Part shown: positions 1-39,200 of the stretch, piece by piece | Layout of the letters: each line of letters starts with the position of its first letter | Numbering within the stretch: the stretch's first letter is position 1 | Assembly: GCA_964356875.1 (NCBI GenBank) | Contig: CAYHIX010000002.1 | Location: 1-42,510 of the forward strand | Reading direction: 5' to 3' | Origin: an uncultured Candidatus Saccharibacteria bacterium | GTDB taxonomy: Bacteria > Patescibacteriota > Minisyncoccia > Phycocordibacterales > UBA9973 | Length of the DNA stretch: 42,510 bases | The notes under the pieces: model-generated | What the model was told of the DNA's origin: nothing | Database searches by the model: none | What the model saw: the letters and a program-made list of their open reading frames with translations, nothing else | Program-made: the position numbers and the translations under genes

Positions 1-55
1 ACCTGCCACCTCCTCATTGCAAATGAGGCGCTCTAGCCAGATGAGCTAAGGGCCC
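1..55 (-). tRNA. tRNA-Ala(UGC), truncated by the window edge (T-arm 3' half and acceptor 3' strand missing)
   Basis: Reverse complement reads GGGCCCT-TA-GCTC-ATCTGGCTA-GAGC-G-CCTCA-TTTGCAA-TGAGG-AGGTG-GCAGG-T... D and anticodon stems pair. The anticodon loop is TT-TGC-AA and G3 fits Ala. The 5' end is ambiguous by 1 nt (55 or 56). Confidence 0.8.
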
Positions 56-22051: not shown

Positions 22052-22054
22052 CAT

Positions 22055-22810
22055 ATGAAAGAATCACCACAAAATTTATATCGGTTTGAAGACCCTAATT
22101 CTTACATAGAAACTGTAGAAACGATTGAAAAACAACTTCTCCAATTAAATTATAAAGATGCAATTCTAGATCTAGAAAGGATAACTAATACCATATATTC
22201 AAAAAATAATATTAATAATCCTGAGTTTAATTTAGGAGATTTAGAACAATGGGTAAGGTCATACGATTTAATTCGTAAAGCTGTGCGCTTGATAGAAGAA
22301 ATGGACGATCTAGGTTCTAATGAACTTAAAAATACTAAGAGCGAGGCTGAGCTAAAGACAAAGATAGATTTAAAAAAAGCTCGTGAAGAAAAATTACAAC
22401 TAATGAAATATGATATCCTGAAAGCAGAAAAAGAAAATATGTATGTGAATGATGCCGTTATTTTCTTAAAAGAGATTAAGGATAATTATATAGATGTAAC
22501 GACAGTACTTGGAGAAATCAAAAATAAATATAGTTCAATTAAACCATATAAAAAAGTAAGTCAGTTTTTTACCGGACTAGACATAGTAGAATTTACAAAA
22601 AATGATTTTGAGCAATCAGATAAATATTTATCCTTGATACAAGAGTTAAATGATCACAATGTAGAATTTTCAAAGAAAAATAACTTGACCAAAGATATTT
22701 TTCTAAGGGCTTGTGATCATAAGGTAAATAAGGGATTGATTGCCAAGATATTAAATTTATTGAATAAAATTCAAAATGAAAGGGGTAAAATTAGAAGTGA
22801 GCACCAGTAA
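22055..22810 (+). CDS. Hypothetical protein (251 aa) inserted between the two transketolase subunit genes
   Basis: ORF track. Visibly more AT-rich than its neighbours and Lys/Asn/Glu-rich. No nuclease or transposase motif recognised. The C-terminus GKIRSEHQ duplicates the tkt-N C-terminus GKIKSEHQ. Confidence 0.6.
   Translation: MKESPQNLYRFEDPNSYIETVETIEKQLLQLNYKDAILDLERITNTIYSKNNINNPEFNLGDLEQWVRSYDLIRKAVRLIEEMDDLGSNELKNTKSEAELKTKIDLKKAREEKLQLMKYDILKAEKENMYVNDAVIFLKEIKDNYIDVTTVLGEIKNKYSSIKPYKKVSQFFTGLDIVEFTKNDFEQSDKYLSLIQELNDHNVEFSKKNNLTKDIFLRACDHKVNKGLIAKILNLLNKIQNERGKIRSEHQ
22782..22810 (+). repeat. Direct repeat, copy 2 (3' end of the inserted ORF)
   Basis: GGGGTAAAATTAGAAGTGAGCACCAGTAA. 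See copy 1. Confidence 0.8.
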
Positions 22811-22814
22811 ATAA

Positions 22815-23813
22815 ATGTTAAATCCAAAATTAAAATTAAATACAAAACTTTTTAATGAAGATGTAGAGCAAGCACCTATCCGTAAAGGATTTGGTGAAGG
22901 TTTAGTTTTGGCAGGGCAACAAGATGAGAATGTTGTCGCCTTATGTGCAGATCTTACAGAGTCTACTCAGATGCATCTTTTTAAAGAAAAGTTTCCTGAA
23001 AGATTTATAGAAGTAGGAGTAGCGGAGCAAAACCTCGTCACTGTGGCCTCCGGCATGAGTGCCATGGGCAAAATACCTTTCTGCTCTTCATATGCTATGT
23101 TCTCTCCAGGGAGAAATTGGGAACAAATCCGCACGACCATCGCATACAACGACAGAAAAGTTGTTGTAGTCGGTTCTCATGCTGGTATTTCTGTTGGTCC
23201 TGATGGTGGCACACACCAAGCCCTTGAAGACATAGCTCTCATGCGAGTCATTCCAAATATGGATGTGATTTCTCCATGCGACAGTATCGAAGCCAAGAAA
23301 GCTACTCTCGCTTTGGCTAAAAGCAGCAAGCCAGCTTACCTAAGGCTTGCAAGAGAAAAAACTCCAGTTATAACTACAGAAGAAACACCATTTAATATAG
23401 GAAAAGCTGAGATTTTTTGGATGCCGGATGTAGGAGTAGCCGAAGTCGGTATCATTGTTACTGGTGGGCTTGTGTACAGAGCATTACTAGCAGCAAAAGA
23501 GCTCGAGTCAGAGGGAATAAAAATAAAAGTTATGAATCTTCCAGCGGTTAAACCGCTGGACGTAGAAGAAATTGTAAAACTTGCCAAAGAAACAAGGAAA
23601 ATTGTGACAGTAGAGGAGCATCAGATAGCAGGTGGTATGGGCTCGGCTATTGCCGAGCTTCTTGTACAACATTTTCCAGTGCCGATAGAATTCATAGGAG
23701 TCAAAGATAAATTTGGACAAAGCGGTACACCCGAAGAGCTCATCGAGCACTACGGTATGGGTAAAGATTCTATCAAAGAGGCAGTGAAAAAAATCCTCAC
23801 CAGAAAGATTTAA
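22815..23813 (+). CDS. tkt: Transketolase, C-terminal (pyrimidine-binding) subunit
   Basis: RKGFGEGL...FPERFIEVGVAEQNLV...GSHAGISVGPDGGTHQALEDIALMR. Confidence 0.9.
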   Translation: MLNPKLKLNTKLFNEDVEQAPIRKGFGEGLVLAGQQDENVVALCADLTESTQMHLFKEKFPERFIEVGVAEQNLVTVASGMSAMGKIPFCSSYAMFSPGRNWEQIRTTIAYNDRKVVVVGSHAGISVGPDGGTHQALEDIALMRVIPNMDVISPCDSIEAKKATLALAKSSKPAYLRLAREKTPVITTEETPFNIGKAEIFWMPDVGVAEVGIIVTGGLVYRALLAAKELESEGIKIKVMNLPAVKPLDVEEIVKLAKETRKIVTVEEHQIAGGMGSAIAELLVQHFPVPIEFIGVKDKFGQSGTPEELIEHYGMGKDSIKEAVKKILTRKI

Positions 23814-24924: not shown

Positions 24925-25039
24925 TACGAAATTATATCATAAAAAACATCCTAAAACTTATCCACAGTTTTGCCGAAAAAATCTTAAAAAAGCGTTCTTT
25001 TTGGATCAAAAAAATGTTAAAATTTAAAGGTAAATATAG

Positions 25040-28000
25040 ATGAAATTATATATCAAAAAATTTAGCGAAACTTTAGTCGCAAAGATGCTTTTTAGCGTTA
25101 GATTTTTTGTTGTTGTTTTGATAATTATTGCAAATGTTTTTTCCGCACAAACTCTTCACGCAACAGCAGGTATTCCGAAGCTTATAAATTTCCAAGGAAG
25201 ACTCATGGACAACACAGGTGCACTCCTCGGTACTTCTGGTGGGACAGATTACTGTTTTAAATTTTCTATTTATGATGCTACGACTGCCGGCACTAAAATT
25301 TGGCCAACCGCAGCACCGACTCCAGACACTCTTGTGGTAAGGACCGGAGTATTTGATGCGACCATCGGAGTAGCAGACACTCTTGATCTTGCTTTTACAG
25401 ATGATCAAGCTTTTGTGAACGTCGCAGTTTCTGCAAAATCAGGAACTTGTGATGTGGGAGAGACAGGTGAGTCTTACGAAACTCTTACTCCACGTCCGCA
25501 AATTGTTTCTTCTGCTTTCGCGATAAATTCTGGAACAGTTGGAGGATTCACTCCTGCACAATCTGCAACTAACAATCAAATCCCAGTACTTACTTCTGGT
25601 GCTATCGTCCTCGGCCATGCGACCACAGCCGGCCTCGCATCGACTGGATCAAATGCTTTGACCATCGACGCAGGAACTTCTGGGATTTTAAATTTAAATA
25701 ATACTTCGACTGGAAATATTTTACTCGGTGGCGGATCTCTCTCTACTGGTTGTACACTTACAAATACCACAGGAGCGTTTGCATGTACCGCTGGGCTTTC
25801 TGGAGTCGGCGTAAATGCTGGAGCTGGATTACTAGAAGGTCAACTCGGTCTTACAATTACCGGCGCTGCAGTGTCACTAAATGCATCAAGCAACTTTGAC
25901 GTAAACATCGCCACAGGAACTTCAACAGGAGACATCACTCTTGGTGGAGGTACTGCAGGACAACTCATCTCTATCAATTCTGACGACTGGGATATTTCTA
26001 CTGCGGGAGCGATGACGGGGATTTCCGGCATCGCCAACAACGGCGCGTACACACAAAGTGGAAGTAGTGCTAATGCATTTACTGGGGACTCCACCTTTAG
26101 TGGTTTCTTACGAGCAACTGGAGCGATAGCCGAATCTGCTCAATCTATTGATCGTATTGACATTGGAGTTAACTCAGGCACCCCTCGTATGGTATTTGAA
26201 GATAGCGGAAGTACTATTTGGCAGGTTGATAACTTTGCTGGAACGTTTCGTTGGTTTACACCTGGTCAAGAGCGTTTTACTCTTGATAGTAGTGGAAACG
26301 TTGATATTAAAACTGGAGGTTTGCGTTTTGCCGCAACTGAGGTTATTACTTCAGGCCGAGCTGCACAAAATTTAACCGGTGTTAGTTCTTCTGGTACCAT
26401 TGCTTTCTCTGGACTTTCTGCGAACGGACCCGTCTACACTTCTGGCGGTACTGGAACACTTACGACAACGGCTCCAACAAGTGGTGCTATTGGTTACTGG
26501 TCTCGAAGTGGCACTACTTTAGAAACAACCACAGCTAATGACATAGTTTTAATTGATACTACAAATACAACTGGAGCTGATCTTGCAATCACCAACACCG
26601 GCATCTACACAGGGACAGGTATCTTGAACCTTACTGCGAATAGTGCGACGACTGGGACACTGGCAAGCATCACTGGCAACGGCGTAACTACTGGCCAACT
26701 CTTTGCTATTGATGGCGGTAACGCTATGACTACAGGGTCAGTGCTTGGAGTAACAGGGACAACCTATGTTCATGGTGCAGAAACAGGTTCACTTGTTAGC
26801 TTGGCATTTACAGATGCAACTATCGCCGCAGTTACTTCTACAACAAATGGAATTTTGCTCTCTCCAACTATCAACGCTCCATCTGGTGCAGCAACCAGAA
26901 CTATAAACGGGATTTCTATAGCACCAGCTTTTACAGCTTGTACAGCTGGAACTTGTGCAGTCAATGGACTTAATATTGGAAACGTCACAGATGGAACTGG
27001 GTTTACAGGAATTGGTATCAAAGTTGGCACAGGTTGGGATACAGGGATTACGGCTCCTGGCACTGCAGCAAATAGCGAACGATTTGGTTTGGGTGCCACA
27101 GTGCCATCAGGTACCGGAGGTTTAGCATTTGGTTATGGTGCAACTGCTAATGCTTCCGGAGCAACATACCCAATAGCAATCGGATATAACTCTAGTGCCA
27201 CTGGACAGCAAAGTATTGTTGTAGGAGGGGCTTCTACGGCAGTAGGTAATGGAGATATCACAATAGGATCAAATGCAACATCTACGGCAAGTAACACCAT
27301 TGTCATTGGTACAAGTGCAGCCAGTACTTCAAATGAAGAAGTGTTAATAGGGGGTAGTGCGACAGGATATAACGCTGGTAACGGCTATTTAGTAGGTATC
27401 GGTCATAGTGTTGCTGCTACAGGTCAGTACAGTACAGCAGTTGGTTATGACTCCTCCTCTACTCATACAGGAGCGGTGGTACTCGGAGCTAGTACAATTT
27501 CTGGGGGTAACTATTCTATCGCATTAGGTACATCTGCGACAACCACTGCAGCGAATCAATTTGTTGCGGGAAGTAATGGAGCGCAAATCACTGATGTGTA
27601 TTTTAGTGAAGGTGTTACAAATGCAACACCACTAGCGTGGATTTTGAACGGAACTGGTGGATCTGGTACTGATATCGCTGGTGGTGATATTACAATCGCT
27701 GGTGGTAAAGGTACAGGTAACGCAGCTGGCGGTGATATTCTTTTCCAAACTTCTAATGCAGGGGCATCTAGCGCTACACTTCAAAGCTTGTCTACAAAAA
27801 TGATTCTTACAGAATTAGGTAGTGTCGGTATCGGCGATACTTCTCCTGCGGCATTATTTACAGTAGGTTCTGGTGATCTTTTCCAAATTGCATCTAATGG
27901 AAACTTAACTTCTGCAAACGCAGGCACATGGACATTTAGTAACGACACAGACTTCGTCTTAACTGGCGGCACTAACGGACTCTCTATAGACGGTACGACT

Positions 28001-31000
28001 TTCTCTGTAGACGGTTCTAATAATAGAGTGGGTATAGGCACCGCGGCACCAAGCACACCACTACATATATTAGTAGACAATGCTACCAATAACGACGTTA
28101 CTAATTTTATAACACTTACCCATACGACTTCTGGAACACCAGCAAACGGTATCGGTGCGGGAATTTTATTCCAAGCGGAAGATACAAATAGTGAAAATGA
28201 GCTCGCTGCATATATAAACGGAGCTCTTACAGGAGCTTCGCATGGATCTGAAACAGGATCACTTTCATTCTATACAAAGAAGGTTGGGGGATATTCAGCT
28301 ATGATATTTGATAGTGCTGCTAGGTTGGGTATAAACACTTCACCAAGCGGTGGAGCACAATTAGATATACTTAACGATAGTTCTGCAATTAATAATGGGA
28401 TCTTACTTACATCGACTGCTAGCGTAGGTGGTTCTCCTTACTACGGTTTAAATATTGATAGAAGCTCTGGAACTGCATCTACTGCTTATGGTATATATGT
28501 TAACGTCGCAAGTACTAGTACCAACATAGCCGCTCAATTATCAACAACTAATTCTGCTACGAATACTGCGAGCAGTGTTATGAATCTAATCAGCTTAACT
28601 TCTGGTACTGCTGCGAACAACATAGGTGCACAAATGAATTTCTATACAGAGGACGACAGTGGAGCAACCGAACTAGCAGCATCTATCGCAGGTATTTTGA
28701 CTAACGCAACTCATGGTGCGGAAGCTGGGGCATTGGTGTTAAGTACTAGAGCCGGAGAGGTGCTCAGACTTCTAAATAATGGCAATGCAGGGTTTGGTAC
28801 TACTGGCGCAGAAAACGCACTCGACATAAACTCTGCCACAGGAGCAAACTTGCAACTTACATACAATGATAGCAATGGATCTGCTGCGAACAAAGTAAAC
28901 CTTGGTACAACCGCAACAGGTGACTTAACCGTTGTTCCTTCTGGGGGAGATATGGGCCTCACTGGAGTTTTGTCTGTATCTTCCATTCTTCAAGTCGGCT
29001 CTGCAACACCAACGACATATTCAAGACTCGGTACAGCTACTACAAACAGAAGTCTAGATGCAGCGAATGATTTATTAATCTCTGACGATCTGGAAGTAGA
29101 AGATGATGCTTGGATCGAAGGGGATCTAACTGTTACAGGTACTTGTACTGGTTGTGGTGGCTCCACCTTCTCCGGTGAAGTAGACGATGCAACGAATGAT
29201 TCCTTAACTTTCACTTCCGACGATGCTTCAGCACCAGCTGGAACAGTGAACTCTATTTTCCGCGATAACACAGGTGACATGAACATCAACACTGTCACTG
29301 GTAAAACTTTGAATGTACAAATTGCTGGAACTGATGAATACAATTTCTCTGCATCCGCTCTCGCGATGAATTCTAACAATATCACCGGACTCGGCACTGA
29401 TATCACCGCTACTGCTGCACTTACTATTACTTCTACCGGTGCAAGTAACGATATAACCCTAACATCTGCCGACCAAATTATTTTAAACAGTACTGGCACT
29501 ATCGAACTACAAGATGCAACGAATGTAACTGGTAACGCCGATGTATCAGGAACCTTGTTTGCCGGCACAGGCGATGCATTCCAAGTTGCAACTTCTGGTG
29601 CTGTAACCGCAGTAGGCGTGAACTCTGGCGCTGGGCTTTTGCAAGGTGCACTTGGCCTCACTGTCACGGGAGCAGCAGTATCATTAAACGATTCACAGAA
29701 CTTCAATGTCACTATTGCTACAGGAACAAGCACAGGAGACATTACTCTTGGCGGTGGAACAGCTGGTCAATTAATCTCTATTAATTCTGATGACTGGGAT
29801 ATTTCTACAGCAGGTGCAATTACCAATGCAACCTACGAAGGCTTAACTATCACAGCTAATGGAACTAATACTCTAAACATTGCTGCAGGAAAAACTCTCG
29901 TCGTTTCTAACTCTATCACTCTAGCTGGTACAGACTCTACAGTTATGACTTTTCCAACCACTTCAGCGACTATCGCCCGTACTGATGCAGGTCAAACCTT
30001 CACAGGAGTTAATACTTTCACTTCTCCAAGGATCATCACCGATATTTCTGATACCAATGGAAATGAACTCTTTAAGTTTACAGCTACTGGTTCAGCAGTC
30101 AATGAACTTACTTTAGCAAACGCAGCTACTGGAGGCATAATTACTCTCGCTGCTACAGGCGGAGACACAGATGTAGAATTTAGAATTGATTCTAAAGGTG
30201 CAGACGCTCTTCATCTAAATGCTACAGCTACTGGATCCATCTTGTTTGCTGGAGGAAGCGGCTCTTCTGGTTGTACCATTACAACAAGTGGAGCACTAAC
30301 TTGTGATGGCAATATCACTGGTCCAGCTACGGGAAGTATTGGTTACTGGTCACGAAGTGGTACAACCCTAGAAACTACCACAGCAAATGATATCGTATTA
30401 ATAGATACTACAAATACTTCTGGAGCTGATCTAGCTATCACTAACACTGGAGTCTACACAGGAACAGGAGTGTTTAATCTTACTGCGAACAGTGCGACGA
30501 CTGGTGTTGTAGGACAGATCAATGCTAATGGTTTAACAACTGGAACAGCGTTAGACATTTCTTCTTCCGGAACTATTACTACTACCGGAGCACTTCTAAA
30601 CTTAACTGCCAACAGTGCCACTACTTCTACTGGTGTTATTCGAGCTTCTGCAACCGCACTTACAACTGGCTTCATGCAAGCTGCGACTCTTGGCACAGCG
30701 CTAACAACTGGTGGTTACTTAAATCTCACTGGCGCAAGTTATGCTCCGGCAGCTGGTGCTACTGGCAATTTGATTAATATTGCTTTCACAAATGCAGCTA
30801 CTAATGGTACCGGTTCTTCCACAGTAACCGGTATGAGTATTACTCCTACAGTTTCTAACAACGGTGCCGGTATTCAAGAAACTTATGGCATTTATGTACA
30901 AAATACAGCTGGCACTCCATCTACAGGCACCCAAAATACTTACGGTATGAGAATTGGTAATCAAGGCAGAAGTGGTGCTGAAGCTTCTTATGGTTTACTG

Positions 31001-34000
31001 ATAGATAATCAAAGCGGTTCCACCGCTAATACAGGTGCGTTAATTAGTGTTTCCGGGGCTAGTGAAGGTATACATATTGCTGGAACCACTTTGACCAGCG
31101 GCACAGGGTTATCTATTTCTGATACTGTTGTGCAATCTGGTTTATCTAGCTTTACTGGAAACTATATTGATATTAGTATGACCAGAATTAATGCTACTTC
31201 TGGGACAACTACAGACAGTGGAAAATATTTGAATGTTTCTAGAACAGGCAGCGGTGTTACAGGTGGAGCTTTTGCTATAACAGGTAATTTGGTTAATTTG
31301 GCGTCAACGTGTTCAAGTACATGTACAGATTCTGGGAAAATTTTGCAATTAACTCAAAGTTTTGCCACTGCGTCTGGGACAGTGTTGGGGATAGATGGAG
31401 CAGGTACTGGTAATTTGATTTCTGCTGATGCAACAGCTGCTACAGCCAACGGTGTATCTATAGATATTCAATCTTCGTCTTCGTCTCAATATGCTCTTAA
31501 CGTTACAACAAATAATGCTGGAACAAATGCTCTCTGGATTGGTGGTGATGGTAATTTAGGTATTGGTGATATAACCCCAGCGAATAAGCTAACCGTCACT
31601 GGCGCAGCATCGATATCTTCAGTCTTACAAGTTGGTCAGGAAACTGTGGCCGCATATTCTCGTCTTGGTGCTGGCACGACAACTCACACTATGGACGCAG
31701 CAAACGATCTTCTCATTTCCGACGACCTTGAAGTAGATGACGACGCTTGGATTGACGGTGACTTAACAGTCACCGGTACTTGTACTGGCTGTGGCGGCGG
31801 AGCTTTCTCCGGTGAAGTTGATGACACAACTAACGACTCTCTAACATTTACTTCCGACGACGCTTCAGCACCAGCTGGAACAGTGAACTCTATTTTCCGC
31901 GATAACACAGGTGACATGAACATCAACACTGTCACTGGTAAAACTTTGAATGTACAAATTGCTGGAACGGATGAATACAATTTCTCTGCTTCTGCTCTTG
32001 CGATGAATTCAAACAATATCACTGGGCTTGGTACAGCACTTACTGCAACAGCAGGGTTAACAGTAACTGCGACTGCTGCCAACTTGGCTTTAGTCACAGC
32101 AACCAGTGGCAACATCACCTTAGCCCCAGCTTCTACGGGTTCTGTTCAGATTACTTCTGGAGTAACGACAGGTACAGGGACTTCTTCAGGAGTATCAATA
32201 GTTGCTAACTCTCTTACTCAAGGAACTGGGCTGGATATTTCTTCAACTAGCTTGACCACGGGAACATTAGAAAAATTAACTCTTTCTGGGACGAGCGCTA
32301 TAGCTACAGCTGCAAGTAGTGGTTCAGCTTTGACTATTAGTTCTTCGGCGACAGGTTGGACAGGAGCAACTCAAACCCTTGCTGCGGTAACCTCAAGTGG
32401 ATCAAATTCTAACGCTAGTGTGGTGCTCCGTGGTCTAAGTAGTTCGGTCACAAACACAGCGACAACAAGCACAAATGTAGCAGGTTATTTTAATGCAAGT
32501 GGAGCGACTACAAACCTAGGATTAAATGTGGATGCAGGGCAGACTTTACTCGGCGGTACTACGCTGACCTCAGGTACACTTTCAAAGCTTAATATAGTAT
32601 CAACGATGGCTTCAAATGGTTCGACTACTGCCATAGCTGGTATTCATGGAGATTATACATTTAACAATGGAGGTACTGCAGGATATGTCCAAATTGGAAA
32701 TAGATTTGTATTCAATAACGCACCGACGACAAATTCAAATACTATGGTCGGAGAGACTATCAGAGTAGTAGACAATAGCGGTCTCGCAAACCTAGTCCGA
32801 GGTATTGATATTACTGCAAACGCTGGTAGTAATACTGCTGGTACAAACACAGGTATCAGGACGACGGCAGCTACATTTGGTATTCAAGCTATCATATCTA
32901 GTACTGCTGGAGGTGTAGCTATACCAGCTGCTATATATGGTGAAAATACAGGCACAACCAACGGAGACATACTTCGTCTTTACACTGGCTCTATGACTTC
33001 TGCTACATCTATGGCTCAGCTTTATCATGATACCTCTACATTTACAGGTGACGGATTGCTTATGGATATGGCAGTAAGCACTGGTACATTCTCAGGAAAC
33101 TTTATTAATCTCAAAAACGCGAGTGTGCTTAAATTTAAAGTCACCAGTGCTGGCGTAGTTAGTATGGGATTGTCTGCTACTGCATCTACAAATGCAGTTT
33201 GTTCTAGCTTAGCAAATGCTACTGGTCCGACTGCAGGTACTGCGTATGAGATCCGTGATTGTAACGCTGCCCCAGCCGCCGACTACGCCGAGATGTATCC
33301 AGTAGAAAGTGGAGTAGAATTTGGAGACATAGTAGCGACAGGAGATGTGATGATAAATACATATGACACTACAGATGGAAACATAGACTGGACTAAGCTA
33401 AAAGGTCAAATCACCAAACTTGAAAAATCTACAAAAGCTTATCAAGGCAACATCGTCGGTATAGTATCTGATAACTATGGAGACTTTACTTCTGCAGGAC
33501 ACAATATAAAAGATGCAGACAATCCTATGCCGGTAGCATTGAACGGACGTGTGCCTGTAAAAGTAGCTTCAACTTCAGAGCCGATAGTGGCTGGGGATTA
33601 TCTTACTACATCTGCTGATGAACCAGGTAAAGCAACAAAAGCAGTAAAAGCAGGGATAGTCATAGGTAAGGCTATAGCTCCATGGAATCCTGGGCAAGCT
33701 ACTGTCATGGTATATGTCGAGCAAGGTTATTATAACGGAGAGAGTTTGAGTAGCTTTGCTGGTATCACTATCACAGGTACAGCCGAAGACTCCGCTATGA
33801 TACTAGCGAAGTTTTTAGAAGAACAAGACAGCATAGGGTATGATGTGTCAGAAATACTTACAGATCGTCTCGCTGCAGGGCTCGAGATAATCACTCCAAG
33901 ACTTACAGCTTCAGAGATAGATACAGGAGTATTGAGAGTAGGAGAGAGTGCGACTTTCCCAGGGCTTACAATGCTAGCAGGTGAGGAAGATCTACCAGCG

Positions 34001-34540
34001 AGAATCATCTTTGACGGGCAAGCAGAATTCAACATGCCTCCAATCTTTAACAAAGACACGGCAGGCTTTGCATTAGTGAAACAAGGGGACAAGAGTGTGC
34101 GTGTAGAATTTGAGGAGGAGTATGCGGCTACTCCAGTGGTTACTGCTTCACTTTCATTTGAGACTACAGACAACATAGATGAAACTTCTCTAGAAGATCT
34201 GTTTGCACAAAATATTTCTTCAATCATTGTAGAAAAAGATGAAACAGGCTTTACTATCGTATTAAATAAAAATGCTCCACAAGATATCCGCTTCTCATGG
34301 ATAGCTCTCGGAGTAAAAGACGCAGCCGTTTTTGAGAGTCTTGGTGAAGGTTTGGAAATTACATCACCTGCACCCGAAGAAAATTCTGGTGGTAGTGGTG
34401 GCGGAGAAGTATCTCCAGACCCAACACCTACTCCAATCCCAGAACCGGAACCAGAAATAATCCCCGAGCCAGAACCAGACCCTACGCCTGATGCAACTCC
34501 CGAACCTACACCCGAACCAGCACCCGAAGCTACACCATAA
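25040..34540 (+). CDS. Giant secreted/surface repeat protein (3166 aa): tail-fibre-like N-terminal module, Gly/Thr/Ala/Ser-rich (GTAS-rich) repeats, YadA-head-like repeats, a C-terminal autoproteolysis-like module and a Pro-rich tail
   Basis: A single uninterrupted frame in the ORF track. N-terminal hydrophobic signal/anchor (FFVVVLIIIANVFSAQTLHA). Internal duplications and motifs are described in the findings. A strong terminator follows directly. Confidence 0.9.
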   Translation: MKLYIKKFSETLVAKMLFSVRFFVVVLIIIANVFSAQTLHATAGIPKLINFQGRLMDNTGALLGTSGGTDYCFKFSIYDATTAGTKIWPTAAPTPDTLVVRTGVFDATIGVADTLDLAFTDDQAFVNVAVSAKSGTCDVGETGESYETLTPRPQIVSSAFAINSGTVGGFTPAQSATNNQIPVLTSGAIVLGHATTAGLASTGSNALTIDAGTSGILNLNNTSTGNILLGGGSLSTGCTLTNTTGAFACTAGLSGVGVNAGAGLLEGQLGLTITGAAVSLNASSNFDVNIATGTSTGDITLGGGTAGQLISINSDDWDISTAGAMTGISGIANNGAYTQSGSSANAFTGDSTFSGFLRATGAIAESAQSIDRIDIGVNSGTPRMVFEDSGSTIWQVDNFAGTFRWFTPGQERFTLDSSGNVDIKTGGLRFAATEVITSGRAAQNLTGVSSSGTIAFSGLSANGPVYTSGGTGTLTTTAPTSGAIGYWSRSGTTLETTTANDIVLIDTTNTTGADLAITNTGIYTGTGILNLTANSATTGTLASITGNGVTTGQLFAIDGGNAMTTGSVLGVTGTTYVHGAETGSLVSLAFTDATIAAVTSTTNGILLSPTINAPSGAATRTINGISIAPAFTACTAGTCAVNGLNIGNVTDGTGFTGIGIKVGTGWDTGITAPGTAANSERFGLGATVPSGTGGLAFGYGATANASGATYPIAIGYNSSATGQQSIVVGGASTAVGNGDITIGSNATSTASNTIVIGTSAASTSNEEVLIGGSATGYNAGNGYLVGIGHSVAATGQYSTAVGYDSSSTHTGAVVLGASTISGGNYSIALGTSATTTAANQFVAGSNGAQITDVYFSEGVTNATPLAWILNGTGGSGTDIAGGDITIAGGKGTGNAAGGDILFQTSNAGASSATLQSLSTKMILTELGSVGIGDTSPAALFTVGSGDLFQIASNGNLTSANAGTWTFSNDTDFVLTGGTNGLSIDGTTFSVDGSNNRVGIGTAAPSTPLHILVDNATNNDVTNFITLTHTTSGTPANGIGAGILFQAEDTNSENELAAYINGALTGASHGSETGSLSFYTKKVGGYSAMIFDSAARLGINTSPSGGAQLDILNDSSAINNGILLTSTASVGGSPYYGLNIDRSSGTASTAYGIYVNVASTSTNIAAQLSTTNSATNTASSVMNLISLTSGTAANNIGAQMNFYTEDDSGATELAASIAGILTNATHGAEAGALVLSTRAGEVLRLLNNGNAGFGTTGAENALDINSATGANLQLTYNDSNGSAANKVNLGTTATGDLTVVPSGGDMGLTGVLSVSSILQVGSATPTTYSRLGTATTNRSLDAANDLLISDDLEVEDDAWIEGDLTVTGTCTGCGGSTFSGEVDDATNDSLTFTSDDASAPAGTVNSIFRDNTGDMNINTVTGKTLNVQIAGTDEYNFSASALAMNSNNITGLGTDITATAALTITSTGASNDITLTSADQIILNSTGTIELQDATNVTGNADVSGTLFAGTGDAFQVATSGAVTAVGVNSGAGLLQGALGLTVTGAAVSLNDSQNFNVTIATGTSTGDITLGGGTAGQLISINSDDWDISTAGAITNATYEGLTITANGTNTLNIAAGKTLVVSNSITLAGTDSTVMTFPTTSATIARTDAGQTFTGVNTFTSPRIITDISDTNGNELFKFTATGSAVNELTLANAATGGIITLAATGGDTDVEFRIDSKGADALHLNATATGSILFAGGSGSSGCTITTSGALTCDGNITGPATGSIGYWSRSGTTLETTTANDIVLIDTTNTSGADLAITNTGVYTGTGVFNLTANSATTGVVGQINANGLTTGTALDISSSGTITTTGALLNLTANSATTSTGVIRASATALTTGFMQAATLGTALTTGGYLNLTGASYAPAAGATGNLINIAFTNAATNGTGSSTVTGMSITPTVSNNGAGIQETYGIYVQNTAGTPSTGTQNTYGMRIGNQGRSGAEASYGLLIDNQSGSTANTGALISVSGASEGIHIAGTTLTSGTGLSISDTVVQSGLSSFTGNYIDISMTRINATSGTTTDSGKYLNVSRTGSGVTGGAFAITGNLVNLASTCSSTCTDSGKILQLTQSFATASGTVLGIDGAGTGNLISADATAATANGVSIDIQSSSSSQYALNVTTNNAGTNALWIGGDGNLGIGDITPANKLTVTGAASISSVLQVGQETVAAYSRLGAGTTTHTMDAANDLLISDDLEVDDDAWIDGDLTVTGTCTGCGGGAFSGEVDDTTNDSLTFTSDDASAPAGTVNSIFRDNTGDMNINTVTGKTLNVQIAGTDEYNFSASALAMNSNNITGLGTALTATAGLTVTATAANLALVTATSGNITLAPASTGSVQITSGVTTGTGTSSGVSIVANSLTQGTGLDISSTSLTTGTLEKLTLSGTSAIATAASSGSALTISSSATGWTGATQTLAAVTSSGSNSNASVVLRGLSSSVTNTATTSTNVAGYFNASGATTNLGLNVDAGQTLLGGTTLTSGTLSKLNIVSTMASNGSTTAIAGIHGDYTFNNGGTAGYVQIGNRFVFNNAPTTNSNTMVGETIRVVDNSGLANLVRGIDITANAGSNTAGTNTGIRTTAATFGIQAIISSTAGGVAIPAAIYGENTGTTNGDILRLYTGSMTSATSMAQLYHDTSTFTGDGLLMDMAVSTGTFSGNFINLKNASVLKFKVTSAGVVSMGLSATASTNAVCSSLANATGPTAGTAYEIRDCNAAPAADYAEMYPVESGVEFGDIVATGDVMINTYDTTDGNIDWTKLKGQITKLEKSTKAYQGNIVGIVSDNYGDFTSAGHNIKDADNPMPVALNGRVPVKVASTSEPIVAGDYLTTSADEPGKATKAVKAGIVIGKAIAPWNPGQATVMVYVEQGYYNGESLSSFAGITITGTAEDSAMILAKFLEEQDSIGYDVSEILTDRLAAGLEIITPRLTASEIDTGVLRVGESATFPGLTMLAGEEDLPARIIFDGQAEFNMPPIFNKDTAGFALVKQGDKSVRVEFEEEYAATPVVTASLSFETTDNIDETSLEDLFAQNISSIIVEKDETGFTIVLNKNAPQDIRFSWIALGVKDAAVFESLGEGLEITSPAPEENSGGSGGGEVSPDPTPTPIPEPEPEIIPEPEPDPTPDATPEPTPEPAPEATP
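25806..26020 (+). repeat. Intragenic repeat A, copy 1
   Basis: Encodes GVGVNAGAGLLEGQLGLTITGAAVSLNASSNFDVNIATGTSTGDITLGGGTAGQLISINSDDWDISTAGAMTG. The paralogous copy is at 29610..29825. Confidence 0.8.
26481..26655 (+). repeat. Intragenic repeat B, copy 1
   Basis: Encodes GAIGYWSRSGTTLETTTANDIVLIDTTNTTGADLAITNTGIYTGTGILNLTANSATTG. The second copy is at 30331..30505. Confidence 0.8.
28968..29397 (+). repeat. Intragenic repeat C, copy 1 (about 430 nt)
   Basis: Encodes ...SSILQVGSATPTTYSRLG...DAANDLLISDDLEVEDDAWIEGDLTVTGTCTGCGG...NSIFRDNTGDMNINTVTGKTLNVQIAGTDEYNFSASALAMNSNNITGLGT. The second copy is at 31601..32034. Confidence 0.85.
29610..29825 (+). repeat. Intragenic repeat A, copy 2
   Basis: Encodes AVGVNSGAGLLQGALGLTVTGAAVSLNDSQNFNVTIATGTSTGDITLGGGTAGQLISINSDDWDISTAGAIT. 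Confidence 0.8.
30331..30505 (+). repeat. Intragenic repeat B, copy 2
   Basis: Encodes GSIGYWSRSGTTLETTTANDIVLIDTTNTSGADLAITNTGVYTGTGVFNLTANSATTG. Confidence 0.8.
31601..32034 (+). repeat. Intragenic repeat C, copy 2
   Basis: Encodes ...SSVLQVGQETVAAYSRLG...DAANDLLISDDLEVDDDAWIDGDLTVTGTCTGCGG...NITGLGT. It contains a 107-nt block (31862..31968) identical to 29225..29331. Confidence 0.85.
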
Positions 34541-34585: not shown

Positions 34586-35128
34586 TTAGATGGTTCGCAT
34601 TTTGGTAATTTTTTTGAAAAGTTTTTTTGGCGGTTCTTCTTTTTGTTCTATTGATCCAGTTTCGTTTTCATTTTTTTTTCTTATTAAATTCGCTAAAGTG
34701 TATGTGACTTGTGGATAACTTTTTTCTTTTTTTGCGGGGGAAATATCTGTGAGGAATTTTTTTACGGGTGGGGTGATGGATTTTTCATCTTTTGGCTTAC
34801 TTAAGCTCATCGCCCAGGCTTTGAAAGTCAGAGCATTTGCTGGAGAGAGTGATTTTAGTATTTCAGTGATAAGATAAACATCTGCCACATCTGTCAAGTA
34901 AAACTTGCCATCAGAAGCCTCTAATTTAAGTTGGTTACATTCTGTAACCAACTGCTTTTGTTTTGTATTTAAACGGTTTTTAAAAACCTTCCAGTAGTTT
35001 CGGGGATTAGAGGTTTTGGTGACAATTCCGACTATATCTACAATAGAAAAACTCCATTTTCCGGCATCTTCATCCCACTTTTTTCTGACTGTGTCAAACT
35101 TTATTTTTTTGATATTTTCTTCGTTCAT
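34586..35128 (-). CDS. Bro-N / DinD-like DNA-binding domain protein (180 aa)
   Basis: KWSFSIVDIVGIVT...NPRNYWKVFKNRL...CNQLKLEASDGKFYLTDVAD...LSPANALTFKAWA resembles the Bro-N/DinD consensus (W.FS..D......YW..LK.RL....LKL.A.DGK...TD....PS.KAE.FK.W). Confidence 0.55.
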   Translation of the reverse strand: MNEENIKKIKFDTVRKKWDEDAGKWSFSIVDIVGIVTKTSNPRNYWKVFKNRLNTKQKQLVTECNQLKLEASDGKFYLTDVADVYLITEILKSLSPANALTFKAWAMSLSKPKDEKSITPPVKKFLTDISPAKKEKSYPQVTYTLANLIRKKNENETGSIEQKEEPPKKLFKKITKMRTI

Positions 35129-36247: not shown

Positions 36248-39200
36248 ATGAAAGTCTCAGCATTCATGATAGCTAAAATAAAATACTTATTAAGAATCTT
36301 CTCTAAATCTTTAGTAGTTGTTTTTATTTTTTCTTTATTTTTAGCTCAGTTTAATTTAGCACAAGCCATAGATGGAACTGGTATGCTTAACTTTGATGAA
36401 GACGGATTAAACAATGTGTCGCCGCATTATAGGACATGGAGCGGGACTGACTTCGGAGGAGAAAGTAATGCTCAAGACGATGAGTCTGCGAGTGATGATA
36501 CAAACCATACAATAGTAGAAGCTTCACCAACTCGTGATGAATACATAATGGGACGTTTGGAGTTAAATGGTCACGTGGACGTCCAGGTGTTTAGTGGTGG
36601 ATCTTGGATCAATGGAACAAACGCACCAACAAACGGAAACTTCACGACAGGCCTCGGTACTACAAATGACATAGCCAGGGGGTTTGATGTGGCTTATGAA
36701 AACGAAAGTGGCGAAGGGATGGTAGTCTACGAAAGTTCGTCTAGTGGTGATGGATTACTTAAGTATAGAACTTGGGATGGTGATAGTTGGTCTAGTGAAG
36801 ATTCCATTGATTACTCAGCAGTGGATGAAGGTAATGCTGTCGCGGTTTGGGTAGAATGTGAAGCAGATCCTGGTAGTAACTACATAATGTGTGCATGGCG
36901 AGAAGCTACTAACTTAGGTCTGTATGCAGCAGTTTGGGACGGCACTCAATGGCTCAACATAGCACAAATAGCTTCAGAAAATGGCACAGCTGCTAGGCAA
37001 GATTTTGATGTAGCATGGGAAGGTACAAGTGGTGATGGGATGATAGTATTCGGTGATGCCACAGGCGCACCTTTTATAGATGCATGGACATATACAAAAG
37101 GCTCAGGCTGGGCTGATACATCAAGCATGACTGACCCTGGTGCAGCAGTTCAATGGGTACGAATAGCCGGCAGTCCGATTAATGATTATATTGCAGTAAT
37201 GATAGGGGACACTCTTTCTACTACTAGTGCTGACTTGAACGTAGATATGTGGAATGGTTCTAACTGGACAACAGCAAACCAGCCCGGAACTATGGATATC
37301 GATATAAACAACAACGGATATGCCCAAGGCTTTGATGTGGCTTGGGAGCAGGCGACCGGAGATAGGGCTTTGTTTGTATTTCGTGATGGTACAACGAGTG
37401 AAACTTTGATTCGTTATATGGTTTATGATATTTCTGCAAACCAATTTCAAGCCATAGAAGACGGTACGCACTGTGCTTTGACAGAAGGTGCGGCGGGTTA
37501 TGCAGAAACTATTACAAACCTTTCTGCAGTAGAAGATTCCGCTGGTCCTTGTACTGCTACTTTTGCATTAGCGGATTCTTTTTCTGGTATAGATTTAAAT
37601 CCTGATCCTGGATCGAATAAAATTATGGTTTTGGCTGAGGACTTAACTGCAGACTTAGTGCCCGAAGCATTTTTGTGGAATGGTGACGCGAACGGTACAT
37701 GGCTTGCGCAGACAGCCACGATGCAAGGTTTTGAAACTGATCTCTCTACGGGGGCCACTCTGTCGAACTCTTTTCCGACAAAACCATATGACTTTGCTTA
37801 TCGTCAAGCGGGCGTTCACAATGTCTGGACAACGGGAACACAGACTACGAACATGACAGTCGGTGCTACGAATCAATACGTAGGGGGAGCTTTTGTTATC
37901 AACAGAACTACGAGTACAGCGAATGTAACCAGCATAACTATTACCGAACAAGGTACAGTCAATGCACAAACTAATTTAGATAATATAAAACTCTATTATG
38001 ACCTAGATAGTAGTGCTCCTTATAACTGTGCTAGTGAAGATTATGCTGGTGGTGCGACTCAATACGGCTCGACTGATACTGATGGTTTTTCTGCTACGAA
38101 TGGATCTTCTACATTTACTGGATCAGTAGCAGTCACGCCTACCTCAGTAATGTGTGTATACACAGTCTTAGATGTAGGAAGTGGAGCGACGGGTGCTGAG
38201 ACAATTGAAATTCAAATAACAACTCCTAGTACTGACATTGTCGTTTCTGCAGGGTCTATCAGAAATGGATTTGCTCGAGTTATTTCTGGAACTACAACTA
38301 TACAAAATGCTATTACTATATCCGGAACTTGTGATGCGTATGATTTGACTACTGACTGTACTGACGATGGTAGCAATTCTATAAAAGTTGCTGTGAATGG
38401 GACTTTGCAGGGTCAAACTGATTCTGTCGTAGATGGTGCATGGTCTATCGGCTCTATTTCGCAGCCAGTTGCTGGCGATGTAATTACTGTATTTATAGAT
38501 GGTGGAGCGACGGACAGTGAAGAGGCGGTGGCTATAACTAAATATGATGGAAGTGGAGACATAGATCTTGTTCGTTTGTATAAAGAACATGTGACTATTG
38601 GTACAGATACTGGTAGTGCAAACTCCGGACAAAGTTTGACTAGTACCAACTTAGAACAATACGATAACGAAGCGTCGGCTGATGAGGATGTGTTTTATGA
38701 ATCCGACACTGTTGCATTTACTTGTGATGGAGTGGCATCGAGTACCGGGTTTTGTTTGGATAAAAATGCGCAAACTAGTACGGGTCGCTTAACTATTTTA
38801 AGTGGTAATACATTTGCACCAGCGAGTAATATTAATGTACACGACATTGCAATAATCGGTACGTTTACTGGTAATGGCAACACTTATACTGTTAGCGGTT
38901 CTTGGAACGATACAGGAACTTTTACAGAAGGTACTAGTACAGTTACATTTACTTCTACATCGACAGGAGAAACTATTACTACGACAGGGTCAACATTTAG
39001 TACTTTAACTTTTAATGGTGTGGCAGGAGTGTGGACTCTACAAGATAGTGCGACTGTGTCGGGAGTACTAACTATTACTAATGGTGAGTTTAATGCCGGC
39101 TCGGGGACACTCACATTTTCAGGTACTGGTACTCCGCTAGTTGTATCAGGTACGTTCACTGCCTCGACAGGAACAGTGCAGTATACAGCAGCGACGGCGA

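What the first reader, a model, noticed from the sequence alone, without database searches (positions are those of the whole stretch)
25040..34540. 3166-aa secreted protein built like a concatenated phage tail-fibre/tailspike
The reading frame is uninterrupted for 9.5 kb. Module 1 (from about 25170) is a signal/anchor followed by an N-terminal module, IPKLINFQGRL.D..G....G.....F.IYDA...G..IWP...L.PRPQIVSSAFA. I recognise this module from tail-fibre-like proteins. Module 2 is kilobases of Gly/Thr/Ala/Ser-rich beta-strand repeats punctuated by (V/L)GIG(D/T)..P...(L/F) motifs (27820-27855, 28030-28075 and 31555-31600), which are typical of tail-fibre shafts. Module 3 is a YadA-head-like block. 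Module 4 is a C-terminal ADYAEMY module resembling tailspike autoproteolytic chaperones. Module 5 is a Pro/Glu/Thr tail. No membrane anchor, sortase signal or S-layer-homology (SLH) domain is visible at the C-terminus. A chromosomal phage-fibre-derived giant adhesin fits a host-attachment device of an episymbiotic or predatory small-genome bacterium, but that role is inference.
Basis: partly seen in the sequence, partly recalled or inferred. Interest (0 to 1): 0.75.

Follow-up and report, generated by a model that had tools for sequence, protein, structure and literature searches.

The report
Giant phage-fibre-like surface adhesin of Patescibacteria
This 9.5-kb chromosomal gene of a tiny, probably host-dependent bacterium (Patescibacteria) encodes a secreted 3166-residue fibre built from the same parts as phage tail fibres and the prey-grabbing fibres of Bdellovibrio; it belongs to a large, so far undescribed family and is the likeliest host-attachment device of these organisms.

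Summary

- **Not a prophage.** The gene lies among housekeeping genes. 26 of 80 related Patescibacteria loci share the same pfkB/transketolase neighbourhood.
- **N-terminal module.** A signal peptide precedes a ~120-aa beta-sandwich. That module heads at least 556 protein clusters, with members up to 5948 aa.
- **Shaft.** It holds a YadA-head block and three copies of the VGIGTxxPxxxL motif. This motif is the capping loop of trimeric beta-helices in S74 tail fibres and Bdellovibrio MAT fibres. A profile of this region hits solved Bd3182 and Bd2133.
- **ADYAEMY module.** It is predicted to fold as a beta-tulip like the self-cleaving C-terminal autochaperone of phi29 tailspike gp12. Its invariant D-x-A-E aligns with the residues just after the gp12 cleavage site.
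- **C-terminus.** An H-type-lectin fold and an acidic Pro/Glu/Thr tail follow.
- **Relatives.** Some carry Peptidase_S74 in place of the tulip.

Best reading: a MAT-like trimeric surface fibre adhesin. Trimerisation, self-cleavage and the adhesin role are inferred. I call it a new variant of a known kind, interest about 0.55.

The parts
25040..34540 (+). Whole gene: 3166-aa secreted fibre protein
   Evidence: Single ORF with no stops. The exact sequence is in the public collection, on a 42,510-bp NCBI contig of a Patescibacteria MAG.
25040..25168 (+). Sec-type signal peptide (aa 1-43): K-rich n-region, hydrophobic core FFVVVLIIIANVF, then A-T-A before G44
   Evidence: It is the only TM-like segment in the protein and is modelled as a helix. 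The A-x-A/G junction is conserved in homologues. Cleavage is inferred.
25169..25534 (+). Conserved N-terminal module (aa 44-165), a 7-stranded beta-sandwich that defines the family
   Evidence: pLDDT is 82-96 over aa 45-155. A profile search gives 556 cluster representatives at E<=1e-30, always at the N-terminus of proteins up to 5948 aa. There is no specific PDB relative, only a weak macroglobulin/Ig-like match.
25535..27091 (+). Shaft segment 1 (aa 166-684), Thr/Gly/Ala/Ser-rich beta-strand repeats; an ancient duplicate lies at aa ~1438-1920
   Evidence: Self-comparison gives 42-69% identity between the two copies and DNA repeats D2/D3 confirm it. Hydrophobic residues show a lag-2 periodicity with z=4. 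The monomer AF2 model is low-confidence here.
27092..27544 (+). YadA-head-like left-handed beta-roll block (aa 685-835)
   Evidence: Pfam YadA_head scores 36.7 bits against a cut-off of 25, in 4 stretches. PDB 1P9H matches at E=1.8e-7.
27737..28909 (+). MAT/S74-fibre-type beta-helix region (aa ~900-1290) with two ~140-aa repeat units (aa 980-1115 and 1136-1279)
   Evidence: Homologues of this tile carry Peptidase_S74, K1-lyase_C or DUF2793. Profile A6 hits Bd3182 (8OJN/8ONB/8ONC, E=4.1e-4) and Bd2133 (8OND, E=0.031).
27824..27859 (+). Capping-loop motif 1, VGIGDTSPAALF (aa 929-940)
   Evidence: It matches the MAT capping-loop alignment.
28028..28063 (+). Capping-loop motif 2, VGIGTAAPSTPL (aa 997-1008)
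   Evidence: It aligns to the Bd3182 capping loop.
28904..29530 (+). Duplicated block, copy 1 (aa 1289-1497)
   Evidence: It is 74-77% identical to aa 2171-2376. The DNA copies are 81% identical (repeat D1).
31550..32167 (+). Duplicated block, copy 2 (aa 2171-2376), which starts with capping-loop motif 3, LGIGDITPANKL (31556-31591)
33200..33280 (+). Conserved Cys2721...Asp2740-Cys2741 loop leading to Ala2747, the residue before the putative cleavage point
   Evidence: The D-C pair is conserved in 26-27 of 28 homologues.
33281..33739 (+). Beta-tulip module (aa 2748-~2900) starting with the invariant D-Y-A-E-x-Y; a putative gp12-type C-terminal autochaperone
   Evidence: pLDDT is mostly above 90. 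Foldseek against PDB finds phi29 gp12 C-terminal fragment 3GQH (E=3.5e-3), 3SUC, and beta-tulip decoration proteins. Foldseek against BFVD finds a 'Preneck appendage protein' (TM 0.61, rmsd 3.4 A, 27% identity) and phage proteins at rmsd 2.3-3.1 A. D and E are invariant in 28 of 28 homologues. In gp12 the mature chain ends at S691 and is followed by D692-F-A-E695.
33740..34060 (+). Linker (aa 2901-3007) with one predicted helix and the conserved EL..DR..AGLE.ITP motif
   Evidence: pLDDT is 44-70. The motif is conserved across full-length family members.
34061..34315 (+). H-type-lectin-like beta-sandwich (aa 3008-3092)
   Evidence: Pfam H_lectin scores 22.8 bits, just under the cut-off of 24, and 14 of 40 family members match. 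Foldseek finds Helix pomatia/aspersa agglutinin (2CCV, 4Q56), SLL-2, discoidin II, and tailspike and pyocin-fibre C-terminal domains, all at prob 1.0.
34352..34537 (+). Acidic Pro/Glu/Thr low-complexity tail (aa 3105-3166); no anchor
   Evidence: Every full-length relative ends in a 67-172-aa tail of similar composition but different sequence, without a hydrophobic end.

Best explanation
The gene encodes a cell-surface fibre of a Patescibacteria (class Paceibacteria-type) bacterium. It is built on the plan of the 'mosaic adhesive trimer' (MAT) fibres of Bdellovibrio and of phage tail fibres.

Proposed mechanism:
1. A Sec signal peptide exports the chain.
2. The conserved ~120-aa N-terminal beta-sandwich stays next to the cell and docks on an unidentified surface element.
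3. About 2500 residues of beta-strand repeats form a long, probably trimeric, shaft. The shaft includes a YadA-head roll and beta-helix units closed by VGIGTxxPxxxL capping loops. It grows and varies by internal duplication.
4. The C-terminal cassette consists of a beta-tulip with the D-Y-A-E motif, a linker, an H-type-lectin fold and an acidic tail. It nucleates and registers trimer folding the way the phi29 gp12 autochaperone does.
5. The cassette either stays on as a sugar-binding tip or is cut off before Asp2748.

The fibre would let the small cell recognise and hold its host or another glycan-bearing surface.

What is shown: the ORF, the modules, their predicted folds, their relatives, the chromosomal syntenic context and the mosaic C-termini. 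What is inferred: trimerisation, orientation, self-cleavage, sugar binding and the adhesin role.
For: Architecture:
- Signal peptide plus a conserved N-module.
- Capping-loop motif present 3 times against 0.0015 expected and identical in form to the published MAT/S74 motif.
- A profile of aa 980-1290 hits solved Bd3182 (E=4.1e-4, both capping loops aligned) and Bd2133.
- YadA_head is above the Pfam threshold.

C-terminal cassette:
- The AF2 model has pLDDT 81.7.
- It matches the phi29 gp12 autochaperone and beta-tulip proteins, and H-type lectins.
- D-x-A-E is invariant and sits where gp12 is cut.

Family:
- The N-module profile finds 6588 cluster representatives at E<=1e-3 and 556 at E<=1e-30.
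- Among 98 long representatives, 59 carry the tulip (41 of them with the lectin), 12 carry an S74-like domain with the SSDxxLK motif, and 2 carry S74 followed by the same lectin domain. The two phage-type chaperones therefore occupy the same slot.

Context:
- The neighbours are housekeeping genes.
- pfkB lies upstream in 26 of 80 GTDB loci, tktC in 22 and tktN in 20. The best 80 loci (of 231 found) are titled as Patescibacteria lineages, apart from a few auto-labelled MAG bins.
- Orthologues range from ~1100 to more than 3100 aa.

Precedent:
- MAT fibres are displayed on the predator surface and bind prey glycans.
- Giant surface proteins are proposed as attachment devices in CPR.
Against: - No experiment or proteomic datum bears on this family.
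- The shaft tile aa 170-480 was modelled at low confidence as a monomer, so fibrous structure is shown only for the YadA block and, by homology, for the capping-loop region.
- Pfam Peptidase_G2 does not match any of 40 family members. hhalign against gp12 gives only 1.5% probability. The residue before Asp is Ala, not Ser.
- If cleavage occurs, the lectin domain would leave with the chaperone, which conflicts with a tip role.
- Homology of the N-module to the Bdellovibrio MAT N-domain could not be tested.
- No anchor is identified, so the protein could be released rather than surface-bound.
Confidence: 0.65

Rival explanations
1. It is a structural envelope or coat protein (S-layer-like, or a spacer that keeps cells apart) and not a specific adhesin. 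The conserved ends serve self-assembly on the cell, and the variable shaft only sets thickness or evades phages.
For: The locus is syntenic and apparently vertically inherited in many species, as expected for a core envelope component. No anchor or specific ligand-binding site was demonstrated. The acidic tail is conserved in composition only.
Against: No SLH or S-layer domain is present. All identifiable modules come from adhesins or receptor-binding proteins: YadA head, MAT/S74 beta-helix, H-type lectin fold, and sporadic LamG/F5_F8_C inserts in relatives. Mosaic C-terminal swapping is typical of recognition proteins.
Confidence: 0.15
2. It is a tailspike-like enzyme fibre: a secreted or surface depolymerase whose beta-helix degrades host capsule or cell wall, as phi29 gp12 and K1F endosialidase do.
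For: The nearest structural relatives of the C-terminal module belong to enzymatic tailspikes such as phi29 gp12 and marine Dpo31. Some family members match K1-lyase_C or Phage_depo_C weakly.
Against: No catalytic domain or hydrolase/lyase family was detected anywhere in the 3166 residues. The matches are to chaperone and C-terminal domains, not to catalytic beta-helices.
Confidence: 0.1
3. It is a phage or prophage tail-fibre gene, or part of a phage-derived tailocin, sitting in the chromosome.
For: The building blocks are phage-like. One weak hit of the GIG tile falls in gp42 of Pelagibacter phage HTVC304P, next to its tail fibre gene.
Against: No phage structural, integrase or lysis genes lie in the 42.5-kb contig; the neighbours are dnaE, gapdh, rpiB, rpe, tkt and pfkB. 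PHROGs gives no hit. The N- and C-terminal modules have no relatives in 50,697 phage genomes or in IMG/VR. The protein has a signal peptide. The same neighbourhood is found in 26 related loci.
Confidence: 0.03

Closest known systems
MAT (mosaic adhesive trimer) fibre superfamily of Bdellovibrio bacteriovorus (Caulton et al. 2024, PMC10769870), e.g. Bd3182 (S74 group), Bd2133 and Bd1334 (NS74 group)
   Same: Both have a signal peptide followed directly by a conserved ~120-130-aa beta-rich N-domain that has no PDB homologue. Both have a long beta-helical shaft with xVGIGTxxPxxxL capping loops. Both have mosaic C-termini that are either an S74 chaperone or other tips. Both are chromosomal genes in an organism that lives off other cells.
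   Different: This protein is three times longer than typical MATs (~1000 aa) and contains a YadA-head block. Its C-terminal cassette (gp12-like beta-tulip, H-type lectin fold, acidic tail) is not among the described MAT tips. The host phylum, Patescibacteria, is absent from the paper's list of MAT-bearing lineages. Homology of the N-domains was not tested.
Bacillus phage phi29 gp12 pre-neck appendage (tailspike), C-terminal autochaperone domain D4 (PDB 3GQH, 3SUC; MEROPS/Pfam Peptidase_G2)
   Same: Both have a beta-tulip fold at the C-terminal end of a beta-helical fibre. Both have a D-(F/Y/L)-A-E-x-(F/Y) motif at the very start of the domain. In gp12 the chain is cut immediately before this Asp, after S691.
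   Different: There is no significant sequence match: Pfam Peptidase_G2 is absent and hhalign gives 1.5% probability. Ala, not Ser, precedes the Asp. About 270 further residues (linker, lectin fold, tail) follow the domain here. Cleavage is not shown.
Phage tail fibres and tailspikes with the Peptidase_S74 intramolecular chaperone (K1F endosialidase, T5 pb1) and MyRF
   Same: They share the capping-loop motif and the triple beta-helix logic. Family members with the same N-module end in S74.
   Different: This protein itself has no S74 domain. It is cellular, Sec-exported and far longer.
Trimeric autotransporter adhesins (YadA family)
   Same: YadA_head repeats form a block of ~150 aa. Both are fibrous adhesins.
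   Different: There is no C-terminal YadA anchor beta-barrel. The polarity is probably opposite, with the conserved cell-proximal end at the N-terminus. To my knowledge Patescibacteria lack an outer membrane.
H-type lectins (Helix pomatia agglutinin, discoidin II C-domain) and lectin-like C-terminal domains of tailspikes and R-pyocin fibres
   Same: The fold of aa 3008-3092 matches (Foldseek prob 1.0, TM 0.47-0.54 on the target), and the Pfam score is near threshold.
   Different: The Pfam score is below the gathering threshold. Sugar-binding residues were not examined. The domain lies downstream of a possible cleavage site.

Membership tests
MAT (mosaic adhesive trimer) fibre superfamily | Signal peptide followed immediately by a conserved ~130-aa beta-rich N-terminal domain | tested here: inconclusive
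   A signal peptide and a conserved 122-aa beta-sandwich are present at the right place and size, with no PDB homologue, as described for MATs. No Bdellovibrio N-domain sequence was available, so homology could not be tested.
MAT (mosaic adhesive trimer) fibre superfamily | Beta-helical shaft with capping-loop motif (xVGIGTxxPxxxL) | tested here: met
   There are 3 strict motif copies against 0.0015 expected, in the same form as Supplementary Fig. 18 of the MAT paper. Profile A6 hits Bd3182 (E=4.1e-4) and Bd2133 (E=0.031), aligned on the loops.
MAT (mosaic adhesive trimer) fibre superfamily | Mosaic C-terminus: an S74 chaperone or an exchangeable non-S74 tip on a common N-terminal chassis | tested here: met
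   Among 98 long proteins with this N-module, 59 carry the tulip, 12 carry S74, 6 carry the lectin only and 21 carry something else. L023 scores 51.5 bits for Pfam Peptidase_S74.
MAT (mosaic adhesive trimer) fibre superfamily | Intertwined homotrimer displayed on the cell surface | not testable with these tools
   Only monomer AF2 was available. The monomer model of the shaft is low-confidence. There are no localisation data.
Peptidase G2 (phi29 gp12 C-terminal autochaperone) | Match to the Pfam Peptidase_G2 profile or significant sequence similarity to gp12 | tested here: not met
   There is no Peptidase_G2 hit for the tile or for any of 40 family members. A PDB profile search is empty. hhalign gives 1.5% probability.
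Peptidase G2 (phi29 gp12 C-terminal autochaperone) | Beta-tulip fold at the C-terminal end of a fibre | tested here: met
   Foldseek finds 3GQH (E=3.5e-3, prob 1.0), 3SUC, gp8.5 and decoration proteins. BFVD gives a pre-neck appendage protein at TM 0.61 and rmsd 3.4 A. The beta-tulip link between gp12 and decoration proteins is documented.
Peptidase G2 (phi29 gp12 C-terminal autochaperone) | D-x-A-E motif at the domain start, directly after the scissile bond | tested here: met
   gp12 reads S691|D692-F-A-E695. This protein reads A2747|D2748-Y-A-E2751. D and E are invariant in 28 of 28 homologues, and variants such as DLAEWY and DLAEYY occur in the wider family.
Peptidase G2 (phi29 gp12 C-terminal autochaperone) | Self-cleavage after trimerisation | not testable with these tools
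   This needs expression of the C-terminal fragment with D2748 and E2751 mutants.
Peptidase_S74 tail-fibre chaperone | S74 domain with the S-D-x-x-x-K catalytic motif | tested here: not met
   It is absent from this protein (local HMM). It is present in relatives.
Trimeric autotransporter adhesin (YadA family) | YadA_head repeats | tested here: met
   36.7 bits against a cut-off of 25. 1P9H matches at E=1.8e-7.
Trimeric autotransporter adhesin (YadA family) | C-terminal YadA-anchor beta-barrel | tested here: not met
   There is no such Pfam hit. The C-terminus is a tulip, a lectin fold and an acidic tail. The protein is therefore not a TAA.
H-type lectin | Pfam H_lectin at or above the gathering score | tested here: inconclusive
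   The score is 22.8 bits against 24. 14 of 40 relatives match at E<=0.05. The fold match to HPA has prob 1.0.
Prophage structural module | Neighbouring phage structural, integration or lysis genes | tested here: not met
   The neighbours are housekeeping genes. PHROGs gives no hit. Synteny is conserved in 26 related loci.

The most novel reading that the evidence does not exclude
This family could be the main host-recognition organelle of Paceibacteria-type Patescibacteria. On this reading it is a vertically inherited, syntenic 'fibre locus' whose shaft length and C-terminal cassettes are reshuffled between species. The D-x-A-E beta-tulip would be a second class of self-cleaving C-terminal chaperone, so far known only from phage tailspikes, working in cellular proteins. 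It would be interchangeable with S74 and would release a lectin-bearing fragment on maturation.
Probability: 0.25. Interest if true: 0.75.

Novelty: new variant of a known kind. Interest (0 to 1): 0.55.

Why it matters
How uncultivated Patescibacteria find and hold their hosts is largely unknown. So far mainly type IV pili have been implicated (PMC11623550 abstract).

This gene identifies a concrete, widespread candidate. It belongs to a family of hundreds of giant fibres with a fixed cell-proximal end and exchangeable phage-type distal cassettes, sitting at a conserved chromosomal position. The family extends the Bdellovibrio MAT concept to a phylum not listed for it.

It also offers testable parts. 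The C-terminal cassette can be tested for self-cleavage. The lectin domain can be put on glycan arrays. The N-module can be used to pull down the docking partner.

If the tulip really is an autochaperone that alternates with S74, it would show that cells recruited both known classes of tailspike intramolecular chaperones.

Tried and rejected
- PHROGs and NCBIfam on the whole protein gave nothing useful.
- Pfam on the whole protein gave only sub-threshold hits; tiling was needed.
- phmmer of the C-terminal tile and profile A1 against PDB gave only chance-level hits or none.
- hhalign of A1 against the gp12 C-terminus aligned the motif, but at 1.5% probability.
- tblastn of the N- and C-terminal tiles against 50,697 phage genomes gave no match. 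The GIG tile gave one weak hit.
- IMG/VR pattern scans with the N-module and tulip alignments found no relatives. Alignments A2 and A1 were too diverse for the pattern tool.
- Foldseek of the N-module found only generic Ig/macroglobulin-like sandwiches. The N-module profile found nothing in PDB.
- Promoter and terminator scans at both gene ends found nothing above shuffles.
- The Xiang et al. 2009 gp12 paper is not held, so the catalytic role of D692/E695 rests on my memory. Only the 1-691 mature boundary was verified.
- The MAT supplement holds no protein sequences, so the N-domains could not be compared.
- Literature searches found no description of this Patescibacteria family.
- The prophage, TAA and artefact readings were rejected for the reasons given under the rival explanations and the membership tests.
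Full report
**1. Observation**

The window is a complete 42,510-bp NCBI contig of a Patescibacteria MAG. The exact giant protein and its GAPDH neighbour are in the public collection, and the GAPDH cluster is named 'Patescibacteria group bacterium'.

The ORF 25040-34540 (+) is uninterrupted and encodes 3166 aa. Thr, Gly, Ala and Ser make up 50.5% of residues, but Ile, Leu, Val and Phe make up 22.6%. In the shaft, Lys+Arg are 2.2% and Pro 1.3%.

The strict motif [VL]G[IV][GN][TD]..P...[LF] occurs three times against 0.0015 expected in shuffles. The gene is internally duplicated. aa 1289-1497 matches 2171-2376 at about 75% identity, and aa 157-600 matches 1438-1920 at 30-69%. The DNA copies are 71-81% identical.

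**2. Context**

The neighbours are dnaE, gapdh, rpiB, rpe, a split transketolase and pfkB upstream. A beta-lactamase-fold gene lies downstream. hisS, a formyltransferase and NDH-2 lie further away. There are no phage genes, and the giant protein has no PHROGs hit.

A scan of one genome per GTDB species found 231 loci that encode the same N-terminal module. Nearly all of the best 80 are titled as Patescibacteria lineages: Nomurabacteria, Paceibacterota, Staskawiczbacteria, Adlerbacteria, Nealsonbacteria and Minisyncoccia. The few exceptions are auto-labelled MAG bins.

The pfkB gene on the opposite strand lies upstream in 26 of those loci, tktC in 22, tktN in 20 and rpe in 17. This is an orthologous chromosomal locus, not a prophage. 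Complete orthologues range from about 1100 to 2100 aa against 3166 here, so shaft length is highly variable.

**3. Anatomy**

- *N-terminus.* aa 1-43 is the only hydrophobic, helix-forming segment and ends in A-T-A before Gly44. That junction is conserved in homologues. It reads as a Sec signal peptide, but cleavage is inferred.
- *N-module.* aa 44-165 is a confidently modelled seven-stranded beta-sandwich (pLDDT 82-96). It has only a weak macroglobulin/Ig-like resemblance in PDB and no PDB sequence relative.
- *Family size.* An exhaustive profile search finds 6588 cluster representatives at E<=1e-3 and 556 at E<=1e-30. The module is always at the N-terminus, in proteins up to 5948 aa.
- *Shaft, YadA block.* aa 685-835 is a YadA-head block. 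Pfam scores 36.7 bits against a cut-off of 25, and PDB 1P9H matches at E=1.8e-7.
- *Shaft, capping-loop region.* aa ~900-1290 carries the VGIG motifs. Its homologues include proteins ending in Peptidase_S74, K1-lyase_C or DUF2793.
- *Link to solved fibres.* A profile of this region hits the solved Bdellovibrio fibres Bd3182 (8OJN/8ONB/8ONC, E=4.1e-4, aligned on both capping loops) and Bd2133 (8OND, E=0.031).
- *Meaning of the motif.* The published MAT/S74 capping-loop alignment contains LVGIGTPAPAVPLQ, NVGIGATSPSAKLQ and MyRF RVGINTDRPDEALV. It is the same motif.
- *Rest of the shaft.* Hydrophobic residues show a lag-2 periodicity typical of beta-strands. The one monomer AF2 run over aa 170-480 was low-confidence (pLDDT 40-55).
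- *Why that run is uninformative.* The solved MAT beta-helix is intertwined, with each face formed from several chains. The alignment was also shallow there.

**4. C-terminal cassette**

The AF2 model of aa 2735-3110 has mean pLDDT 81.7, with two domains above 90.

*First domain, aa 2748-~2900.*
- In PDB it matches beta-tulip proteins, including the phi29 gp12 C-terminal fragment 3GQH (E=3.5e-3, prob 1.0), pre-mature gp12 3SUC, the phi29 gp8.5 base, and decoration or cement proteins.
- In BFVD it matches a 'Preneck appendage protein' (TM 0.61, rmsd 3.4 A, 27% identity). It also matches several large uncultured-phage proteins at rmsd 2.3-3.1 A and 22-25% identity.
- The literature confirms that gp12 D4 shares the beta-tulip fold with decoration proteins. 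It also confirms that gp12 D4 is an autochaperone removed after trimerisation.
- Mature gp12 ends at residue 691. In the phi29 record residue 691 is Ser, followed by D692-F-A-E695-Y-F. Here A2747 is followed by D2748-Y-A-E2751-M-Y.
- The D, A, E and second Y are invariant in all 27-29 homologues that cover them. Variants such as DLAEWY and DLAEYY occur in the wider family.
- At sequence level the link fails. There is no Pfam Peptidase_G2 hit in 40 members and hhalign gives 1.5% probability.

*Second domain, aa 3008-3092.* It has the H-type lectin fold. It matches HPA 2CCV and 4Q56, SLL-2, discoidin II, and tailspike and pyocin-fibre C-terminal domains. The Pfam score is just below threshold (22.8 against 24), and 14 of 40 relatives match.

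*Tail.* The last 62 residues are an acidic Pro/Glu/Thr tail. Every full-length relative has such a tail, and none has a hydrophobic end or a sortase motif.

**5. The family is mosaic**

Among 98 representatives of at least 850 aa with this N-module:
- 59 have the tulip, and 41 of those also have the lectin domain.
- 12 have an S74-like domain with the canonical SSDxxLK motif.
- 2 have S74 followed by the same lectin domain.
- 6 have the lectin domain only, and 21 have other ends.

Pfam confirms Peptidase_S74 in locus L023 (51.5 bits), whose N-module is 51% identical to this one. Other relatives carry LamG, F5/8-C or LVIVD inserts. The tulip and S74, the two known classes of tailspike C-terminal intramolecular chaperone, therefore occupy the same slot on the same chassis. 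This is the strongest indirect argument that the tulip has a chaperone-type role here.

**6. Comparison with known systems**

The closest described system is the MAT superfamily of Bdellovibrio (PMC10769870). Its features are:
- a signal peptide;
- an invariant ~130-aa beta-rich N-domain without PDB homologues, thought to bind a surface element of the producer;
- an intertwined trimeric beta-helix with capping loops;
- an S74 or a swapped tip;
- display on the predator surface, and binding of prey glycans.

The present protein meets the testable features. N-domain homology could not be tested.

It differs in four ways: size, the YadA block, the gp12-type tulip/lectin/acidic-tail cassette, and phylum. 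The paper's list of MAT-bearing lineages covers Oligoflexia, PVC, Alpha- and Deltaproteobacteria, the FCB group and Omnitrophica, but not Patescibacteria.

It is not a TAA, because it has no anchor barrel. It is not a member of Pfam Peptidase_G2 or Peptidase_S74. Giant surface proteins have been proposed as attachment devices in CPR (Vampirococcus), but my searches found no description of this family.

**7. Mechanism and limits**

I propose a Sec-exported, N-terminally docked, C-terminally nucleated trimeric fibre. It would be used to recognise and hold a host or another glycan-bearing surface. Its evolution would run by internal duplication and cassette swapping.

Several things remain open:
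- whether the chain is cut before Asp2748, in which case the lectin domain and tail leave with the chaperone;
- whether instead the cassette stays on as the tip;
- what the N-module binds;
- whether the fibre is retained on the cell or released.

Descent from phages is not demonstrated. Sequence relatives of the end modules are absent from phage collections. The relation is one of shared building blocks.

Noticed in passing
window 36248-42508 (+): A second giant gene starts with a signal-peptide-like N-terminus (MKVSAFMIAKIKYLL...) and runs off the contig end after at least 2087 aa without a stop. The ORF listing omits it for that reason. It is also Thr/Gly/Ser-rich, but it lacks the N-module, the capping-loop motif and any Pfam hit.
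   Followed up: partly
window 176-~796 (+): A tRNA gene appears to be split by a group I intron. The 5' half (TCCGGGGTAGCTCAGTGGTAGAGC...) starts at 176. The 3' half (GTAGGTTCGATCCCTACCCCCGGAGCA) lies just after the Rfam Intron_gpI match at 479-754 (82.4 bits). An HNH-like endonuclease ORF with CxxC...HH...CxxCH (154-552) lies in the stretch between the halves. ARAGORN does not call the gene.
   Followed up: partly
window 1-55 (-): A partial tRNA is cut by the contig end (Rfam, 31.1 bits).
   Followed up: no
window 34586-35128 (-): A 180-aa ORF lies directly downstream of the giant gene and has no Pfam hit. Homologues occur on the minus strand downstream of the giant gene in 7 other Patescibacteria loci, so it may be a conserved partner.
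   Followed up: partly
window 21170-23813 (+): The transketolase is split into N- and C-terminal genes. A 251-aa ORF (22055-22810) with no Pfam hit lies between them.
   Followed up: no
window 25001-34000: The giant gene has 43-46% G+C against 33-37% in much of the contig. This is most simply explained by its Gly/Ala/Thr-rich coding. Conserved synteny argues against recent transfer.
   Followed up: partly
P0180, P0183 (proteins): Two family members combine an S74-like chaperone with the same downstream lectin-like domain. If S74 cleaves as usual, the lectin domain would be released with it. The same puzzle applies to the tulip cassette.
   Followed up: partly
L015 and L029 (JBPOHU01, Candidatus Nomurabacteria MAG_26): One genome has two loci with the N-module, so at least some species carry paralogous fibres.
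   Followed up: no
window 3082-3951 (+): This ORF carries HTH_17 plus a B12-binding domain, which is the architecture of a light- or B12-responsive MerR-type regulator.
   Followed up: no
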